DNA of 10,345 nt, taken from a virus. The stretch is from UHGV virus genome UHGV-0795596; one strand, given 5' to 3'. Below are positions 1 through 7,106 of this stretch, piece after piece. The notes under the pieces were generated by a model. That model was not told the origin of the DNA. It searched no databases and saw only the letters and a program-made list of their open reading frames with translations. The position numbers and the translations under genes were made by a program. How positions within the stretch are numbered: position 1 is the stretch's first letter; every line of letters starts with the position of its first letter.

Positions 1-31
1 CCCCCACACCATTTACCTAAAGGAGCATTAA

Positions 32-547
32 ATGTCAGTAAATATTAACATGAATCTTTATACTAAACGTGAACGTCAGATTCTGGCGAATCAACCTGGT
101 GTTACGACCATCGACGGTAAACCTATTGACCGTTTAAAAGTTATCGTTGCGCGAAATTGCCATGAACACGATTGGGATATCACCTACTTCCGTTGTTGTT
201 CGGTCGCAAATGCGCTTACTCAACTCTCTAACTACCACTCAGGGCCGCTATTAAAAGACTGGGTTTGGTTAGTGCCAAGAACACCCTCAGCAATTGAGTA
301 TCCCACTGGGCTAGTTTATATTCGCCCCGTTGCTTACCCAGAGCGTCTGAAAGAGTATCTTGAAGTTATCTGGAACCGTCCTCGTAAAGAGCTGGTGACG
401 ATTATTAATTTACTGCAGCAGATCGAAATCCCCGGCGTTTCGAATTTGAAACTCACGTCTCGCGATATTAACCAGGCTTACTGGGAACTGGAGTGGACAG
501 AACCGAAATTCGAAAACACTAACCGTATTTTCTTGCACCGGGGGTAA
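32..547 (+). CDS. hypothetical protein (171 aa), no recognisable domain
   Basis: Intact ORF; ATG at 32 preceded by SD AAGGAG at about 6 nt; stop TAA 545-547 lies 2 nt before the next start. Leader 'tttacctaaaggag.attaaa' recurs almost identically upstream of the CDS at 5149. Confidence 0.7.
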   Translation: MSVNINMNLYTKRERQILANQPGVTTIDGKPIDRLKVIVARNCHEHDWDITYFRCCSVANALTQLSNYHSGPLLKDWVWLVPRTPSAIEYPTGLVYIRPVAYPERLKEYLEVIWNRPRKELVTIINLLQQIEIPGVSNLKLTSRDINQAYWELEWTEPKFENTNRIFLHRG

Positions 548-1861: not shown

Positions 1862-2132
1862 AACTATTGTATTTTGTCAAAACGGTGATGTAAAACAATA
1901 CCGGGGCAAGAAGTTAATTCGTACGTTAGATTATCGCGAAGCAAAACGTTTCGTTGAAGAGTGTGCGTGGTTAATGCATTACGAAGGGAACTATCGTGCC
2001 ATCTTAGAAGCACCGCGTTTAGAACGTGCAGTTGCGCAGATGGCAATAGGTAATCCTAAGAACTGTTACCTGGCCCGTAAGCCCAAATACCTACAGCGTG
2101 TCTCGCTAGGCAGTTTTATTGCGGGTTTTTAA
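1851..2132 (+). CDS. hypothetical protein (93 aa)
   Basis: ATG 1851 with GGGAG (1838-1842) at 8 nt; overlaps the upstream stop (TGA 1859-1861). The track ORF opens at GTG 1830. Confidence 0.6.
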   Translation: MNRETIVFCQNGDVKQYRGKKLIRTLDYREAKRFVEECAWLMHYEGNYRAILEAPRLERAVAQMAIGNPKNCYLARKPKYLQRVSLGSFIAGF

Positions 2133-2161
2133 TAAAAATATTTTCAGATATATATTACCTA

Positions 2162-2185
2162 GGTGAGAGTTCAGTTACTCTCACT
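2162..2185. other. hairpin (GTGAGAGT / ACTCTCAC, 6-nt loop) in an AT-rich intergenic region; possible operator or RNA structure
   Basis: Inverted repeat read from sequence, downstream of AT-rich 'aataaaaatattttcagatatatatt' and 16 nt upstream of SD AGGAG. No adjacent U-tract. Confidence 0.3.
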
Positions 2186-2213
2186 TAACGAAACCATTTT
2201 AGGAGAATATACC

Positions 2214-2708
2214 ATGAACTTCACTAGACTTGATTACACTAACGAATTAGTCGACAAAGAAAAATACAAATTCACGATTGACTTGGGTTACGGGCTGTGG
2301 GACGTAGAAAAAGATATTCTACACAAAGAATTCCGTGAGCAATTCGGTGCATTATTCTGCGCAGGATTCCGTAGAAATTCTATTGATATCGGTTATGGTG
2401 CAACACCGTATAGCGACGAAGAAATGTTTAAGCTGATAACACAGATTATCGGAACTCGTGTGGCTAAACGTTTTAATTATTCTAACGAACTTGTTTCGAA
2501 AGAACATTACAAGTTCACTGTTAGACTACCTGTTCCTCTCTTTAAAGAAGATAAGAATAGACTCTATAAAGCCCTACAAACCGAATTCGGTAAAACGCTC
2601 AAAGTAGGGTTCCGCAGTCGTAGTATCGATATCGGAATTAGCGTAGACGTGTGCAGTGACGATGACCTTTACGAATTAGTTTCGGAAGTTATCGGAAAAC
2701 ACCTCTAA
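2214..2708 (+). CDS. hypothetical protein (164 aa) built from two tandem copies of a roughly 75-aa domain
   Basis: ATG 2214 with SD AGGAG (2201-2205) at 8 nt. Residues about 8-82 and 89-163 align colinearly (Y[TS]NELV.KE.YKFT...GFR.RSIDIG...LV..VIG). Confidence 0.7.
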   Translation: MNFTRLDYTNELVDKEKYKFTIDLGYGLWDVEKDILHKEFREQFGALFCAGFRRNSIDIGYGATPYSDEEMFKLITQIIGTRVAKRFNYSNELVSKEHYKFTVRLPVPLFKEDKNRLYKALQTEFGKTLKVGFRSRSIDIGISVDVCSDDDLYELVSEVIGKHL

Positions 2709-2752: not shown

Positions 2753-3529
2753 ATGAAAACTATCGAGTTTAAGAATAGTAGTCTTTGGGCATACACGCAC
2801 ATCATTACGAGTTTCCTGAAAAACGTTACTCCACATCTTGCTTATCAGATTTATGGGAATGAGCTCACTATCGGTGGTTTTAACGAGGATGAATTAAAAC
2901 GAGCAAAAGAGTTCATTGACGATGTTCTTCGTGGTGAAGCAACGTGTTTAGTTGCATGTTACGTTGCTAAAGACAAAGGAAGATTAAACGTCATGGCAAT
3001 TTTCAGATCGTTCTCCGAAAAAGTATACGAAGTTGAGAAGATTAGTCATACCGTTTATATTGTTTACTTTAAACGTTCGGCGGAGAAAAACGCTGATAAA
3101 ATTCTGGAGTATTTCGACTGTAACCCGGGGGAAGGTATGGATGTCTATACGCTCGGTTACGATGGAGTACCTCACCGGAATAACCTTATTCGCATTGACG
3201 AACCTTTTTCAGTCAATGACGATTCCACGCCTATAGAGATGGTTCTGGTACACAAAGATCGTTTCGCGCATTACGATTCTGATACTATTCAACGTGTCCT
3301 GAACAACGTTAATATTCAGTTTTCACAAACCGAGCACTTAGTACGTGCATGTCTTAGGTCTAATGGCACAACATCATTTTTCTTCGAACGTCAAACCGTT
3401 TGGCAAACTTATCTGGCTCTGATGGAAGAACTTGATAGGATCGAGCCAGTTCAGGTTGGTGCAAATTGCTTATATTGGATAAAAACAAAAGGGTTCATGA
3501 ATGAAAACGCTCAATTCAGATTTGCGTGA
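2753..3529 (+). CDS. hypothetical protein (258 aa)
   Basis: ATG 2753 with SD AAGGA about 8 nt upstream. Leader 'accaaaaggaaaa' is shared with the CDS at 3951. The 3' end overlaps the next CDS by 29 nt. Confidence 0.7.
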   Translation: MKTIEFKNSSLWAYTHIITSFLKNVTPHLAYQIYGNELTIGGFNEDELKRAKEFIDDVLRGEATCLVACYVAKDKGRLNVMAIFRSFSEKVYEVEKISHTVYIVYFKRSAEKNADKILEYFDCNPGEGMDVYTLGYDGVPHRNNLIRIDEPFSVNDDSTPIEMVLVHKDRFAHYDSDTIQRVLNNVNIQFSQTEHLVRACLRSNGTTSFFFERQTVWQTYLALMEELDRIEPVQVGANCLYWIKTKGFMNENAQFRFA

Positions 3530-3929
3530 TTACATCCGTCAGTACCCAGCCAGTATTCCTGTACTGGCTTCGCTTACGCTTTCAGGTACTGACGTTAACA
3601 TCTTAACGGTGGAACAGTTCCACGAGATAATAAAAACCGCTTATAACTCCATTACCGCAACGTCAGTACGTAAACGTTGCGATTATCCCGACGGGGATTT
3701 CGGCACCGAGATGTTTACAGATTATGCGGTTGCATTTCTGTTAGGGCGACACTGCCTCGATAAACTTAACACTGCTGTAGAAGGGGAAACAGTGACGGAA
3801 ATAGTCAACGCTTGGCAGCAACGTATTCTGAGCGACGCTTACTGCCGACAGGCGTTAAAACGAATGTCCACAACGGCGATTACAAACGACCAGCGTGCTT
3901 TAGAGTTCTTTAAGCACAATTACAGCTAA
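3501..3929 (+). CDS. hypothetical protein (142 aa), paralog of the CDS at 5149-5580
   Basis: ATG 3501 with AAGGG upstream. N-terminal 'DLRDYIRQYPASIPVLA ... EQFHEII.T.Y' aligns with 'DIRNYIRNNPIALGVLA ... EEYQEIVNTNY' in the 5149 CDS. Confidence 0.7.
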   Translation: MKTLNSDLRDYIRQYPASIPVLASLTLSGTDVNILTVEQFHEIIKTAYNSITATSVRKRCDYPDGDFGTEMFTDYAVAFLLGRHCLDKLNTAVEGETVTEIVNAWQQRILSDAYCRQALKRMSTTAITNDQRALEFFKHNYS

Positions 3930-3950
3930 TTTACCAAAAGGAAAAATGAC

Positions 3951-5072
3951 ATGTTTAATATCGAAATTACTCCGCTCGTTAAAACTGAAATCCGTCCGGT
4001 TCCTGAAGCACAGTTACTTGATCAACTTTATCGCATATTCCTGGATAAAGGTGTACATTTCCGTGTAGAGCAGGTCAACGATGAAAGCATCGTGTTCTAC
4101 TGGACTCACTGCAACGATTATCTTTGCGACACTATTGCGGTGGAAATCGGTGAGTTACTCAACCCGGTAGCCGAGAACGCCAAGGTAAAAGCGGCCGAGA
4201 CAGAGCAACCGAAAGTCGAAGAGCAGCAGTGGTCTATAAACAATGAAGACTCGACATACGTAAATCAATATGATGTTGAAACGATCGAGAAAATTAAAGA
4301 GGCATTAAATATCCTCTATCCCGATGCCTTATACATTAGTCAAAAATACGACATGTTAGCTTTCAGGATGAAGGAATTCGATCCTAAGATCATGAAAGCT
4401 ATTCGCATCGTCGTTGCTCTGATCGTCAAAGACGCCGTTCGACTTATTTCGGTTCGTGATATCGGAAAAGAAGACGCAGATGCAGTCATGCGTAGTGCTG
4501 TTCACGAATACAAAGAGAAAATTCGTGGGTCTAATTATGTCGACGGCACTCTAACTGTGCTTGTTGATAATGATCCTGACGTTATTAAATGGTTCGAAGA
4601 ACCGTATTCCTTTACTTACACTGGTCCAGAAGCCGAAGCGATTAATGATACCTTGACAGCTTTCTATCCTACCAAAGTAGAGACTAAACTCGAGGGCGAA
4701 AAACTCACCATTAAATGGAAATGGTGGGACGCTGCTCTTGACGAAGAAATTAGCAACCTCATTAATGAGATTGTTGACAATCGTCTACGTCTTCTGACAA
4801 TCACTACTATTGGGAAAGAAGATGCCGATACGTTTATGCGTGATATCGCTCGTTGGTTTCCTGAGAAAGTCCGTCAGTGGACTTACACAGACAATACACT
4901 TACCATTCTACTCAACTATGAACCCGGTATTATCGGAAAGTTAAAAACTCATCTGCGTGACTTGTGGTCAGTTCGTTTTCTTAAAAATAATGAGCATTCG
5001 TTCGATGCTCTCTTTAGAGAAATATCTTCTGGCGCAGGCTGCGATTGCCCTGCTTGTCAAAAATTTCGTTAA
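3951..5072 (+). CDS. hypothetical acidic protein (373 aa) with an internal duplicated domain and terminal Cys clusters
   Basis: ATG 3951 with AAGGA upstream. Repeats at roughly aa 150-217 and 266-333 share '...IGKEDAD..MR...EK.R..Y.D.TLT.L...P..I'. Cys motifs are C-x4-C (aa 54-59) and C-x-C-x2-C at the C-terminus (GCDCPAC). Followed by an intrinsic terminator. Confidence 0.75.
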   Translation: MFNIEITPLVKTEIRPVPEAQLLDQLYRIFLDKGVHFRVEQVNDESIVFYWTHCNDYLCDTIAVEIGELLNPVAENAKVKAAETEQPKVEEQQWSINNEDSTYVNQYDVETIEKIKEALNILYPDALYISQKYDMLAFRMKEFDPKIMKAIRIVVALIVKDAVRLISVRDIGKEDADAVMRSAVHEYKEKIRGSNYVDGTLTVLVDNDPDVIKWFEEPYSFTYTGPEAEAINDTLTAFYPTKVETKLEGEKLTIKWKWWDAALDEEISNLINEIVDNRLRLLTITTIGKEDADTFMRDIARWFPEKVRQWTYTDNTLTILLNYEPGIIGKLKTHLRDLWSVRFLKNNEHSFDALFREISSGAGCDCPACQKFR

Positions 5073-5096
5073 TTGATGACTTTCTAAATTCATCTA

Positions 5097-5130
5097 AGGG
5101 GTGACAATTCACCCCTCTATTATTGTTTTT
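5097..5130 (+). terminator. rho-independent terminator (stem AGGGGTGA / TCACCCCT, loop CAAT, then T-rich tail)
   Basis: Perfect 8-bp GC-rich hairpin followed by 'ctattattgttttt', 25 nt after the stop of the 373-aa CDS. Confidence 0.7.
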
Positions 5131-5148
5131 ACCTAAAGGAGTATTAAA

Positions 5149-5580
5149 ATGTTTTTCGTATTAAAAGATGATATCCGTAACTACATTCGTAACAACCCTA
5201 TTGCTCTGGGCGTTTTAGCAGGTTTCTGTCGTCCAAATACTGATTTCGATTTAGTTAAGTTAGAAGAATATCAGGAAATTGTGAATACTAACTACATGCA
5301 CATCTGTAGCTGGGGTAAACGTCCTCGCGAAGAGTACCCTGTAGGTGAGTTAGGTGACACTATGCATCGTGACCAGAATCTGATGCACGAATTCGTTGAA
5401 TACACACTGGAAAATCTTAACTATCCGCTTCTGGTCGACACTGTACCAGAAATGGTTGACGAATGGTTAAGTCGTGTTTACAACGATCCTACTGCCAGCA
5501 CTCTACTGAGTCAGATGTCGCAAACTTCTCGTGATATCGACACCCGGACCCTGATGTACTTAGCACACAACGTTCGTTAA
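5149..5580 (+). CDS. hypothetical protein (143 aa), paralog of the CDS at 3501-3929
   Basis: ATG 5149 with SD AAGGAG at 8 nt. Paralogy seen by eye in the N-terminal half. Leader is nearly identical to that of the CDS at 32. Confidence 0.7.
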   Translation: MFFVLKDDIRNYIRNNPIALGVLAGFCRPNTDFDLVKLEEYQEIVNTNYMHICSWGKRPREEYPVGELGDTMHRDQNLMHEFVEYTLENLNYPLLVDTVPEMVDEWLSRVYNDPTASTLLSQMSQTSRDIDTRTLMYLAHNVR

Positions 5581-5587
5581 TCTCACT

Positions 5588-5640
5588 CCGCTATAGGCTT
5601 CGGTCTATAGCGGAATTAATTTTCTTTCCCTTTTCTTTTT
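5588..5640 (+). terminator. rho-independent terminator (stem CCGCTATAG / CTATAGCGG, 8-nt loop, long T/C-rich tail)
   Basis: Perfect 9-bp hairpin at 5588-5613 followed by 'aattaattttctttcccttttctttttt'. Marks the end of the upstream block of small genes. Confidence 0.7.
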
Positions 5641-5746: not shown

Positions 5747-6595
5747 ATGTCTCTTACGTCAAAACAGAAACTGCTAAAACTCATCAACACTGAAAACAAT
5801 ATTGTTCCGCCATTGACCTTCAGTGATGTTGATATCGGCGAACCTACTGGTACTGGGGTTGATACCCAGGTGGTTCTGACTTCTAAACTCAAAGGCGATG
5901 AGTCTACTACTTTAACTGTGACTTATCATCGTCGTAATTTGCCCGAATACCTAACAGGTGAGTTGGTATTCGGTAACGACGGTGTTGTAACCGCTGCAGA
6001 TTTGCTTAATGCAATCAACGCAAAATACGATTTAAATATTCTGCCGTCGGATATCATTGATGCGAAAGTTGAAGGTGAAACCCATCAGCTTACCGCTAAC
6101 GAGAAATCCTACGAATGGTGTGGCGAGGTGACACTCACGCTACGCGACCCTATTGATCTGGCTAAATTGTTACCTGTTACTCAATTAGAAAACCTGGTAG
6201 AGTATCCGTCCACTAAGAAAGGTAACGCTGCAGTTTATTCTTACCCAATTGACTTCACCGCAGAAAAAGATTACCTCGATCCGATTACCATTAACGACAC
6301 CGTCGACCTGGCTGAGTTAGCTACTAAGCTGGATAACGTCGTTGACGAGAAATGGGTAAGTGTACCTAAGAACGCTGCTAATAACCTGTACGGTGCTAAG
6401 GTTATCTACGATGGTCCTACCGCAGGTTTCGAAGGCGCAAATACGAAGTTCACACGTGTGTTGGTGCTGACGCTCAGCCCGTTGTGTTCTAACCTGACCG
6501 GTAATCTGTTAATCCATTTTAACGGTACCGATCGTCCAAAGTCGAAGATTGAATTAGCTAAAACTAATTCGGTCTTACCGGGATTCTTAGATTAA
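5747..6595 (+). CDS. hypothetical protein (282 aa), member of a three-gene paralog family
   Basis: ATG 5747 with only a weak SD-like GAG upstream. Its N-terminal roughly 110 aa align with the CDS at 6609 (LI...N...L...V.LG.P...G..T....S.K...T..Y.R...YL...TAADLL..IN..Y.L). Confidence 0.65.
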   Translation: MSLTSKQKLLKLINTENNIVPPLTFSDVDIGEPTGTGVDTQVVLTSKLKGDESTTLTVTYHRRNLPEYLTGELVFGNDGVVTAADLLNAINAKYDLNILPSDIIDAKVEGETHQLTANEKSYEWCGEVTLTLRDPIDLAKLLPVTQLENLVEYPSTKKGNAAVYSYPIDFTAEKDYLDPITINDTVDLAELATKLDNVVDEKWVSVPKNAANNLYGAKVIYDGPTAGFEGANTKFTRVLVLTLSPLCSNLTGNLLIHFNGTDRPKSKIELAKTNSVLPGFLD

Positions 6596-6608: not shown

Positions 6609-7106
6609 ATGACCAGTCAAGAAACTATCTTCGACCTTATTAAAAAGGCTAACCCAGACGCTGAGCTTGACACCGCCAAAGTCACGCTGGGCGATCCGGT
6701 TGTGACCACCGGTACTTACAATACCGAAATTACGGTTGCGTCAATTAAGAATCTCGGTTACACTAACGAACAAACGTTCCAGTATAACCGCATTGACGCA
6801 GGTTTATATTTCCTGAACGTATTACCGAAGCTGTTGGTAGAATCTGCAACGACTACCGCTGACTTACTGCCCGTCATTAACGAGCAGTACAGCCTAACCC
6901 TTACAGAAGACGACGTGTGGGTAGAGCAGGTCGGCGAGTTACCGTTAGACGGTAGCGCAATCGAACACGGTATTTTCTTCCGCCCTGAATGTTTAACCTG
7001 GGTAGGCGGTTTTACGGTGCGCGTTGCACGTAAAACTGCTGAAGATGCTGAACCTGCGCCAAAAGCAGCTAAAGCACGTACAACTCGTGCACGAAAATCC
7101 AAGTAA
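6609..7106 (+). CDS. hypothetical protein (165 aa), paralog of 5747-6595, with a basic Ala/Lys/Arg-rich C-terminal tail
   Basis: ATG 6609 with SD AAGAGGA at about 9 nt. The C-terminal 'RKTAEDAEPAPKAAKARTTRARKSK' looks like a nucleic-acid-binding tail. Followed by a terminator. Confidence 0.7.
   Translation: MTSQETIFDLIKKANPDAELDTAKVTLGDPVVTTGTYNTEITVASIKNLGYTNEQTFQYNRIDAGLYFLNVLPKLLVESATTTADLLPVINEQYSLTLTEDDVWVEQVGELPLDGSAIEHGIFFRPECLTWVGGFTVRVARKTAEDAEPAPKAAKARTTRARKSK

What the first reader, a model, noticed from the sequence alone, without database searches (positions are those of the whole stretch)
3501..5580. Paralog pair bracketing an acidic, internally duplicated, Cys-motif protein
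The 142-aa and 143-aa proteins (3501-3929 and 5149-5580) are clear paralogs (D[LI]R[DN]YIR..P...VLA ... E[QE][FY][HQ]EI..T.Y) and flank a 373-aa strongly acidic protein. That protein contains a duplicated roughly 68-aa unit with an 'IGKEDAD' core and Cys clusters at both ends (C-x4-C near the N-terminus, C-x-C-x2-C at the extreme C-terminus), which could form a zinc site. Acidic, repeat-built proteins in phage early regions are classic candidates for DNA mimics or inhibitors of host defence or nucleic-acid enzymes, and the flanking paralogs could be adaptors. This is a hypothesis from composition and context, not from homology.
Basis: partly seen in the sequence, partly recalled or inferred. 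Interest (0 to 1): 0.5.

Follow-up and report, generated by a model that had tools for sequence, protein, structure and literature searches.

The report
Early jumbo-phage repeat protein with Cys-tail
A giant Salmonella/E. coli phage carries a fast-evolving gene of unknown function, probably switched on early in infection; its protein is a chain of five small common-fold modules ending in an almost invariant three-cysteine tail, the gene sits between two copies of a conserved early gene, and nothing found here supports the idea that it mimics DNA.

Summary
The 142-aa and 143-aa proteins are paralogs (33% identity, E 2e-27) of the SPN3US gp135 family (phrog_8484). The 373-aa protein has a true internal duplication, but of about 110 aa rather than 68. 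The C-terminal C-x-C-P-x-C is kept in 119 of 122 homolog cluster representatives (a 120th keeps the three Cys). The N-terminal C-x4-C is not conserved, so a two-ended zinc site is unsupported. Acidity is moderate (pI 4.84, -0.05 charge per residue).

The window comes from a roughly 222-kb SPN3US-like "persistent" jumbo phage. A perfect phiKZ-type early-promoter motif (2142-2158) precedes four genes: the 164-aa and 258-aa ORFs, A142 and B373. They end at a terminator-like hairpin (5097-5116).

B373 is confined to this clade and evolves faster than its neighbours (dN/dS 0.34 against 0.02-0.15), with one hypervariable module.

Best reading: a non-enzymatic early binding or adaptor protein, and a new ORFan family. 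Its function is inferred, not shown. Interest is modest.

The parts
2142..2158 (+). Early-promoter-like motif TTTCAGATATATATTAC (virion RNA polymerase type). It is followed by a stable 5' hairpin at 2160-2187.
   Evidence: Zero-mismatch match to the consensus TTTYARRYAKATATTAY. It is the only TATATTAC in the window. The consensus is taken from PMC7058600 Table 2. The same motif lies upstream of the SPN3US gp135 and phiEaH2 gp055-056 homologs, and only 3 copies occur in the 222-kb relative. Hairpin -15.5 kcal/mol, z -5.1.
2214..2708 (+). First gene of the predicted early unit: a 164-aa protein with its own internal duplication. Function unknown.
   Evidence: The two halves are 41% identical, E 1e-22. 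The start at ATG 2214 follows the RefSeq annotation of the ortholog in NZ_CP134650. No family hit.
2753..3529 (+). Second gene: a 258-aa protein in a hypervariable slot. Function unknown.
   Evidence: Only 48% aa identity to the ortholog in a relative where most genes are 90-99% identical. In locus L010 a 157-aa gene (4069-4542) occupies this position, and it showed no profile match to B373. No family hit.
3501..3929 (+). Paralog A (142 aa), a member of the SPN3US gp135 family (phrog_8484).
3951..5072 (+). B373: a clade-restricted 373-aa modular protein.
   Evidence: 253 homologs, all unnamed or 'hypothetical'. An exhaustive profile search of 1.84 billion representatives found only 4 real clusters. 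AlphaFold model: pLDDT 76, pTM 0.48.
3975..4160 (+). B373 N-terminal module (aa 9-70, beta-alpha-beta-beta-alpha). It is the most conserved part of the protein.
   Evidence: Secondary structure. Mean pairwise identity 0.87. dN/dS 0.07.
4167..4250 (+). Acidic, disordered, length-variable linker (aa 73-100).
   Evidence: pLDDT 36-44. Indels in the alignment. Net charge -4.
4257..4586 (+). Repeat 1 (aa 103-212), made of module 1a (hypervariable) and module 1b (IGKEDAD loop).
   Evidence: Module 1a has mean pairwise identity 0.52, minimum 0.11. Both synonymous and non-synonymous sites are saturated against the relative in L003.
4605..4934 (+). Repeat 2 (aa 219-328), made of module 2a and module 2b (IGKEDAD loop).
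5040..5069 (+). C-terminal tail C-D-C-P-A-C-Q-K-F-R, with three near-invariant cysteines and a proline.
   Evidence: Sequence read directly. Conservation. The tail is also kept in a natural one-repeat variant, P0134.
5097..5116 (+). Terminator-like hairpin followed by a T-rich tract. It marks the end of the predicted early unit.
   Evidence: -13.5 kcal/mol, z -3.0.
5149..5580 (+). Paralog C (143 aa), phrog_8484 family, very conserved.
5587..5614 (+). Strong terminator-like hairpin separating paralog C from the head-protein genes.
   Evidence: 12-bp stem. -20.2 kcal/mol, z -6.5.

Best explanation
The window is part of a roughly 222-kb SPN3US-like ('Seoul-like', Chimalliviridae) jumbo phage of the kind found as a persistent episome in Salmonella, E. 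coli, Shigella and Enterobacter isolates.

In relatives, one early promoter drives a single conserved early gene (the SPN3US gp135 family) just upstream of the head 'paralog family B' gene array. In this clade that gene was duplicated into A142 and C143. Clade-specific genes now lie between the promoter and C143. B373 is one of them.

B373 is most likely a non-enzymatic early binding or adaptor protein. It has four parts:
- a strongly conserved N-terminal module, inferred to dock on a conserved partner;
- an acidic flexible linker;
- a duplicated pair of ferredoxin/ACT-like modules, whose first module is swapped between very different alleles (inferred specificity element) and whose second modules carry a conserved IG-x3-AD loop at the beta1-alpha1 turn (inferred binding site);
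- a C-terminal Cys3 tail, which probably binds a metal ion together with a fourth ligand from another chain or partner, or forms a redox or disulfide clasp.

Shown here: the anatomy, the homology relations, the conservation pattern, the rate differences and the promoter and terminator motifs. Inferred: early expression, binding rather than catalysis, the metal, and any host target.
For: Origin:
- 85-87% nucleotide identity to 222-kb 'plasmids' NZ_CP173450 and NZ_CP134650.
- Gene order shared with SPN3US and phiEaH2.
- Persistent Seoul-like phages are described in bioRxiv 10.1101/2024.12.31.630880.

Early unit: promoter motif and terminator-like hairpins. The general rule that such motifs mark early operons comes from PMC7598289.

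Duplication:
- A142 vs C143 is 32% identical, against 22-25% to the single-copy outgroups.
- There are exactly two copies in the 222-kb relative and one match per record in the nine phage records that contain the family.
- The order A-B-C is kept in the most divergent ortholog and in a one-repeat variant.

No catalytic family.

Conservation pattern and rates.

Not a virion component in the best-studied relative: SPN3US gp135 is absent from the virion protein table (Supplementary Table 1 of PMC5694885), which does contain gp138-154.
Against: - No experimental data exist for any member of either family.
- The ferredoxin-like fold is among the commonest folds and says little about function.
- The model's module arrangement is uncertain (pTM 0.48), and the alignment behind it is shallow (32 sequences, mean 77% identity).
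- Early timing rests on a sequence motif, not on transcript data for this phage.
- Three cysteines alone do not make a canonical zinc site.
- The raised dN/dS (0.34) is still purifying selection. The hypervariable module looks like allele replacement by recombination, and linkage to the variable neighbouring slot could contribute to that.
Confidence: 0.4

Rival explanations
1. B373 is a DNA mimic or anti-restriction protein. Its acidic surface would imitate DNA and block host nucleases or other DNA-binding defence proteins.
For: It is acidic relative to the genome (most acidic ~11% of ORFs), is in a predicted early unit, has no enzyme homology, and is repeat-built.
Confidence: 0.07
2. B373 is an ACT-like small-molecule binder: a sensor or a sponge. 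The conserved IG-x3-AD loops at the beta1-alpha1 turn would hold a metabolite or a signalling nucleotide early in infection.
Against: No ACT Pfam model matches, even at E 0.1. Identities are 6-18%, and designed ferredoxins score as well or better. The hypervariable module is hard to reconcile with a fixed small ligand.
Confidence: 0.12
3. The trio serves head assembly, for example as chaperones or scaffolds for the adjacent DUF7941 / 'paralog family B' head proteins.
For: The paralog family always lies immediately upstream of the head paralog array, in the window, in SPN3US and in phiEaH2.
Against: There is an early-type promoter upstream and strong terminator-like hairpins between these genes and the head genes. 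SPN3US gp135 is not in the virion proteome. B373 is absent from SPN3US and phiEaH2, which build the same heads. No conserved protease-site motif is seen in the linker (my reading of the alignment).
Confidence: 0.12
4. The arrangement has no joint function. It would be a by-product of tandem duplication plus insertion of unrelated accessory genes in a recombination-prone slot, with B373 a dispensable 'moron'-type gene.
For: Neighbouring slots are replaced wholesale between relatives. Repeat number varies naturally between one and two. Relatives do without B373.
Against: The order A-B-C is kept down to 52% identity. B373 is under purifying selection. The N module (dN/dS 0.07) and the Cys tail (119 of 122) are tightly kept.
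Confidence: 0.2

Closest known systems
SPN3US gp135 (SPN3US_0135, YP_009153429.1) / phiEaH2 gp056; PHROG phrog_8484, function unknown
   Same: A142 and C143 are full-length homologs (E 1e-9 to 1e-20; profile E ~1e-61). They are the same length, share the same invariant residues (R60, P64, G69, D75; D113, S124, R133 and H140 nearly so), occupy the same position upstream of the head paralog array, and have the same early-promoter motif upstream.
   Different: There are two copies here, 32% identical to each other and 22-25% to the single-copy homologs. They are separated by a gene those phages lack.
ACT / ferredoxin-like regulatory domains (for example SerB 3p96, SpoT ACT 7qpr, GcvR-like 1u8s, aspartokinase ACT domains)
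   Different: No sequence-level match to any ACT model. Identities are 6-18%, and designed ferredoxins score equally well. B373 has five modules in one chain, an acidic linker and a Cys3 tail. No attached enzyme or DNA-binding domain was detected in B373.
DNA-mimic anti-restriction proteins (T7 Ocr, ArdA)
   Same: Small phage- or plasmid-borne early proteins, acidic, non-enzymatic.
Short terminal Cys motifs that bind metal between chains or sense metal or redox state (Rad50 zinc hook, CD4-Lck zinc clasp, CopY C-x-C-x4-C-x-C, Hsp33 C-x-C...C-x-x-C). All recalled from my own knowledge.
   Same: A compact cluster of conserved cysteines at a chain end, with too few ligands to complete a site alone.
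   Different: The spacing (C-x-C-P-x-C-Q-K-x-R at the very C-terminus) matches none of these. No metal has been shown.

Membership tests
phrog_8484 / SPN3US gp135 family (for A142 and C143) | Significant full-length match to the family profile | tested here: met
   E 4.6e-15 and 1.5e-17, covering profile positions 3-126 of 140. tblastn to SPN3US, phiEaH2, Stratton and Asesino covers 91-99% of the query.
phrog_8484 / SPN3US gp135 family (for A142 and C143) | Conserved genomic position: downstream of an early-promoter motif and upstream of the DUF7941 head-protein array | tested here: met
ACT domain (Pfam PF01842, PF13291, PF13740), for the B373 modules | Match to an ACT sequence model | tested here: not met
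   No Pfam family for B373 at E up to 0.1.
ACT domain, for the B373 modules | Beta-alpha-beta-beta-alpha-beta fold | tested here: met
ACT domain, for the B373 modules | Binding of a small ligand at the beta1-alpha1 loop or domain interface | not testable with these tools
   The only supporting fact is that the conserved IG-x3-AD motif lies at that loop.
DNA-mimic proteins (Ocr / ArdA type) | Very high, patterned negative surface charge imitating the DNA backbone | tested here: not met
   pI 4.84, D+E 17.2%, net -0.051 per residue, similar to neighbouring structural genes.
DNA-mimic proteins (Ocr / ArdA type) | Structural or sequence similarity to a known mimic | tested here: not met
DNA-mimic proteins (Ocr / ArdA type) | Binding to and inhibition of a DNA-binding enzyme | not testable with these tools
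   Needs biochemistry.
Structural zinc site (Cys4 or Cys3His within one chain) | Four conserved ligands | tested here: not met
   Only C364, C366 and C369 are conserved. Position 54 is Ser or Thr in 86 of 107 sequences. Position 59 is Cys in 78 of 107. Residue 372 is His in the commonest tail variant but Phe here.
Structural zinc site | Metal actually bound | not testable with these tools
   Needs ICP-MS or a PAR assay on purified protein.
Known anti-phage defence or counter-defence protein families in PADLOC | Profile match | tested here: not met
   No hit for A142, B373, C143 or the two upstream genes.
Virion protein (SPN3US head paralog family B / DUF7941) | DUF7941 profile match or presence in the virion proteome of a relative | tested here: not met
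   DUF7941 hits only the downstream genes 5747-6595 and 6609-7106. SPN3US gp135 is absent from the virion table.

The most novel reading that the evidence does not exclude
A142, B373 and C143 form an early complex specific to the 'persistent' SPN3US-like jumbo phages. In it, B373's swappable module recognises a variable host factor or an immune signal, and the Cys3 tail clasps a metal with a partner chain. Such a complex could contribute to long-term carriage of a nominally virulent, nucleus-forming phage, or to evasion of a defence that acts before the phage nucleus is built. The paralog fold, which has no solved relative, would then be a new adaptor fold.
Probability: 0.08. Interest if true: 0.7.

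Novelty: new member of a known kind. Interest (0 to 1): 0.3.

Why it matters
If B373 turns out to be an early host-interaction factor, it would be one of the few handles on what nucleus-forming jumbo phages do before the nucleus exists. It might also bear on why this clade persists in clinical Salmonella, E. coli and Shigella isolates, where its genomes are deposited as 'plasmids'.

As the evidence stands, it is a well-delimited ORFan family built from a very common fold, plus a conserved early gene family whose confident predicted fold has no solved relative. That makes it a useful annotation and a reasonable target for knock-down screens. It is not a surprise for specialists, because jumbo phages are full of clade-specific early genes.

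Tried and rejected
1. Nucleotide and protein searches of B373 against 50,697 deposited phage genomes found nothing. The family is absent from sequenced phage isolates.

2. An exhaustive profile search of 1.84 billion representative proteins found only 4 real clusters. The two marginal hits (P0135, P0136) are long repetitive proteins that match short FTYTGP-like strings, and I rejected them as spurious.

3. Pfam, PHROGs, NCBIfam, PADLOC and PDB sequence profiles gave no hit for B373. For the paralogs they gave only phrog_8484.

4. I first took P0134 (253 aa) for the upstream paralog. It is in fact an ortholog that has lost one repeat. The true upstream paralog (249 aa, outside the window) has one repeat and no Cys tail.

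5. I tested whether the two upstream genes of the unit (164 aa and 258 aa) are built from the same modules as B373. hhalign gave no support, with all probabilities below 1%.

6. I tested whether the N-terminal module is a third copy of the repeat's first half. The result is only suggestive (P 0.01), although the predicted topology is the same.

7. I compared the sulfatase-type C-x-P-x-R motif (a radical-SAM modification target) with the tail, because radical SAM genes lie about 8 kb away in the relative. The spacing does not fit, judged by reading the sequence.

8. Prohead-protease A-x-E sites in the linker: present here (AAE) but not conserved across the alignment.

9. A Pfam scan of eight large ORFs of the relative, meant to find chimallin, gave no hit. 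Nucleus formation therefore rests on the cited preprint, not on my own test.

10. Rfam and tRNA scans of the window found nothing.
Full report
WHAT THE WINDOW IS

All long ORFs but one lie on the + strand.

- Downstream of the finding lie two DUF7941 / phrog_1037 'virion structural protein' genes (5747-6595 and 6609-7106).
- Next come a GH108 endolysin-like gene, a DUF1353 gene and a second endolysin-like gene.
- The whole window is 85-87% identical at nucleotide level to two circular records of about 222 kb that are deposited as plasmids: E. coli NZ_CP173450 and Enterobacter ludwigii NZ_CP134650.
- Deposited phage genomes share only short stretches at nucleotide level. Gene order, however, is shared with Salmonella phage SPN3US and Erwinia phage phiEaH2.
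- A preprint describes exactly such 'Seoul-like' jumbo phages as persistent, non-temperate infections in Salmonella, Escherichia and other isolates. It reports that they encode chimallin (10.1101/2024.12.31.630880).
- I did not verify chimallin myself. A Pfam scan of candidate ORFs gave nothing.
- The DUF7941 genes correspond to the SPN3US head 'paralog family B', gp138-154 (PMC5694885).

CHECK OF THE OBSERVATION

- The two flanking proteins are paralogs: 33% identity over 137 residues without gaps, E 2e-27.
- The 373-aa protein has pI 4.84 and net charge -19. This places it in the most acidic ~11% of gene-like ORFs of the related element. Charge density is only -0.051 per residue, and several neighbouring genes are equally acidic.
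- The internal duplication is real but longer than reported. Residues 103-212 align with 219-328 at 32% identity with no gap, E 5e-20.
- Most orthologs have about 25 extra residues after repeat 1 that the window copy lacks. By eye they resemble the segment that follows repeat 2.
- Among 122 cluster representatives, the tail C-x-C-P-x-C is present in 119. One exception keeps all three Cys, one lacks the C-terminal end, and one has lost two Cys.
- In the 107 sequences where the N-terminal motif could be located, position 54 is Ser or Thr in 86 and position 59 is Cys in only 78.
- A zinc site that joins the two ends is therefore not a family feature. A three-Cys C-terminal tail is.

THE FLANKING PARALOGS

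- Both match phrog_8484, function unknown.
- The family was found only in SPN3US-like and Erwinia jumbo phages. It has one match per record in the nine phage records that contain it.
- The SPN3US member is gp135, SPN3US_0135. It is absent from the SPN3US virion protein table, which lists gp138-154.
- In the 222-kb relative there are exactly two members, the ones that flank the B373 ortholog.
- A142 and C143 are closer to each other (32%) than to the single-copy outgroups (22-25%). The duplication is therefore specific to this clade, and it is old.
- No cysteine is conserved. The invariant residues are R60, P64, G69 and D75; D113, S124, R133 and H140 are invariant or nearly so.
- The AlphaFold model of C143 is confident (pLDDT 92, pTM 0.84) and all-helical with seven helices.
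- C143 is under very strong constraint: 99% identity to the L003 ortholog and dN/dS 0.02. A142 is less constrained (82% identity).

THE MIDDLE PROTEIN

- There is no match in Pfam, PHROGs, NCBIfam, PADLOC or PDB sequences, and none in 50,697 phage genomes.
- The large protein collection holds 253 homologs. All are unnamed or 'hypothetical', and they come from contigs of up to about 227 kb.
- A filter-free profile search of 1.84 billion representatives found only four genuine clusters. The family is therefore confined to this clade.
- The AlphaFold model has pLDDT 76 and pTM 0.48. It shows five beta-alpha-beta-beta-alpha modules at residues 9-70, 102-159, 163-216, 219-275 and 279-346.
- The model also shows a disordered acidic linker (73-100), a further helix, and the tail.
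- Each sequence repeat consists of two such modules. Profile comparison gives 1a~2a at E 1.6e-10 and 1b~2b at E 7e-19. The N module resembles 2a only weakly, P 0.01.
- Foldseek against viral models gives TM-scores of 0.23 or less, to uncharacterised pithovirus proteins.
- Nothing resembling Ocr, ArdA or any other known inhibitor appears among the listed matches.
- A distant paralog of 249 aa, with an N module, one repeat and no Cys tail, lies just upstream of the window's left end in the relative.
- A natural ortholog with one repeat deleted keeps both the tail and the gene order.

EVOLUTIONARY BEHAVIOUR

I compared the window with the E. ludwigii element gene by gene.

- Most genes are 87-99% identical at protein level, with dN/dS 0.02-0.15.
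- B373 is 71% identical with dN/dS 0.34.
- The 258-aa gene just upstream is 48% identical, with saturated synonymous sites.
- Within B373, the N module is tightly kept (mean pairwise identity 0.87, dN/dS 0.07).
- Module 1a is hypervariable (mean 0.52, minimum 0.11) and saturated at both kinds of site. This looks like exchange of old alleles rather than point-mutation-driven change.
- The order paralog - B373 - paralog - DUF7941 is preserved in the most divergent ortholog, at 52% identity.

TRANSCRIPTION SIGNALS

- At 2142-2158 the sequence TTTCAGATATATATTAC matches, without mismatch, the early-promoter consensus compiled for OBP, N1M2, 201phi2-1 and phiKZ (PMC7058600 Table 2).
- It is the only TATATTAC in the window.
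- The strict 17-mer occurs only three times in the 222-kb relative.
- It also lies 61 nt upstream of SPN3US gp135, and upstream of phiEaH2 gp055-gp056.
- In RNA-polymerase-encoding jumbo phages such motifs mark early operons. Wherever transcripts have been profiled, the motifs proved to be early promoters (PMC7598289; PMC11512511).
- The first convincing intergenic terminator-like hairpin on the + strand after the promoter is at 5097-5116, just after B373 (-13.5 kcal/mol, z -3.0).
- A stronger hairpin follows C143 at 5587-5614 (-20.2 kcal/mol, z -6.5).
- The inferred units are therefore: promoter, then the 164-aa gene, the 258-aa gene, A142 and B373; then C143 on its own; then the head genes.
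- Early expression is an inference from these motifs.

INTERPRETATION

The ancestral layout is an early promoter, one gp135-type gene, and then the head-gene array. Here it has been expanded by duplication of that gene and by clade-specific genes.

B373 combines four features:
- a conserved N-terminal module;
- a flexible acidic linker;
- an allele-swapping module;
- two conserved IG-x3-AD loops at the beta1-alpha1 turn, followed by a near-invariant Cys3 tail.

B373 also matches no catalytic family and has a fold typical of binding or regulatory domains. I therefore consider a non-enzymatic early binding or adaptor protein the most likely reading (confidence about 0.4 for the functional part). 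In that reading, the tail completes a metal site with another chain or forms a redox clasp.

The rivals are these:
- **DNA mimicry** is not excluded, but it gains no support from charge density or fold (0.07).
- **An ACT-like small-ligand binder** is a lead based on the fold and on the position of the motif (0.12).
- **A head-assembly role** is suggested only by adjacency. The promoter type, the terminators and the SPN3US virion proteome argue against it (0.12).
- **An adjacency without any joint function** remains possible (0.2).

COMPARISON WITH WHAT IS KNOWN, AND NOVELTY

- The paralogs are ordinary members of an existing but uncharacterised PHROG.
- B373 is an unnamed family that matches no library used here. 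It is built from a very common fold.
- Neither gene can be filed under ACT domains, DNA mimics, zinc fingers, defence-related families or virion proteins. The membership table gives the tests.
- This is a new member of the broad, familiar class of clade-specific early jumbo-phage genes. It is not a new kind of system.
- The confident paralog model without any solved relative, and the invariant Cys3 tail, are the two points that might repay experiments.

LIMITS

- There is no experimental evidence for any member of either family.
- No multimer prediction was possible.
- The dN/dS values come from a single genome pair.

Noticed in passing
window 2131-2189: The early-promoter motif and the 11-bp-stem hairpin just after it (2160-2187, -15.5 kcal/mol, z -5.1) match intergenic sites at 86-97% nucleotide identity. 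The matches occur in many Erwinia and Salmonella jumbo phages that otherwise share almost no nucleotide similarity with the window, at 1-3 sites per genome. The element may be a conserved promoter plus 5'-leader structure. It has no Rfam match.
   Followed up: partly
window 2214-2708: The 164-aa first gene of the unit is itself an internal duplication: two ~80-aa halves, 41% identical, E 1e-22. It matches no family and shows no detectable relation to the B373 modules.
   Followed up: partly
window 2753-3529; L010 4069-4542: The gene slot upstream of paralog A is hypervariable. The 258-aa protein is only 48% identical to its ortholog in a relative where other genes are 90-99% identical. In a 227-kb metagenomic relative a 157-aa gene occupies this position. 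The 258-aa ORF also overlaps the start of A142 by 29 nt.
   Followed up: partly
L003 5193-5942 (NZ_CP134650 196628-197377), just outside the window's left end: A distant paralog of B373: 249 aa, an N module plus one repeat, and no Cys tail (profile E 1.5e-8).
   Followed up: partly
L011 428-1189; L012 1287-2048: A natural B373 ortholog with one repeat deleted (253 aa). It still has the Cys tail and the same neighbours, so repeat number varies between one and two in nature.
   Followed up: partly
NZ_CP173450.1 and NZ_CP134650.1 (hits H10, H11): Complete genomes of this jumbo phage, about 222 kb each, are deposited and annotated as bacterial plasmids (typed 'non-mobilizable'). Almost all their genes are labelled 'hypothetical'.
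   Followed up: partly
window 7171-7761, 7869-8543, 8521-9036: Two different endolysin-like genes (GH108 with PG_binding_3, and phrog_894) flank a DUF1353 / phrog_1158 gene. The last two overlap by 23 nt.
   Followed up: no
window 9155-9634, minus strand: The only long minus-strand ORF (159 aa) starts with a lipoprotein-type signal peptide and a lipobox (LSLASC). It could be a phage-encoded lipoprotein, for example for exclusion or a spanin-like role.
   Followed up: no
window 12-32 and 5128-5148: A near-identical 21-nt stretch, TTTACCTAAAGGAG(C/T)ATTAAA, lies immediately before the start codons of the first gene of the window and of paralog C. It is a shared ribosome-binding or leader element.
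   Followed up: no
L003 18217-20458 (NZ_CP134650 209652-211893), minus strand: Two adjacent radical SAM genes lie about 8 kb downstream of the locus in the related phage genome. The B373 tail does not fit the C-x-P-x-R modification motif.
   Followed up: partly
protein P0149 (Salmonella phage SPFM10) and P0150-P0155: The SPFM-phage entries of the gp135 family align only in short pieces and look rearranged or truncated compared with SPN3US gp135. This may reflect assembly or annotation problems in those records.
   Followed up: no
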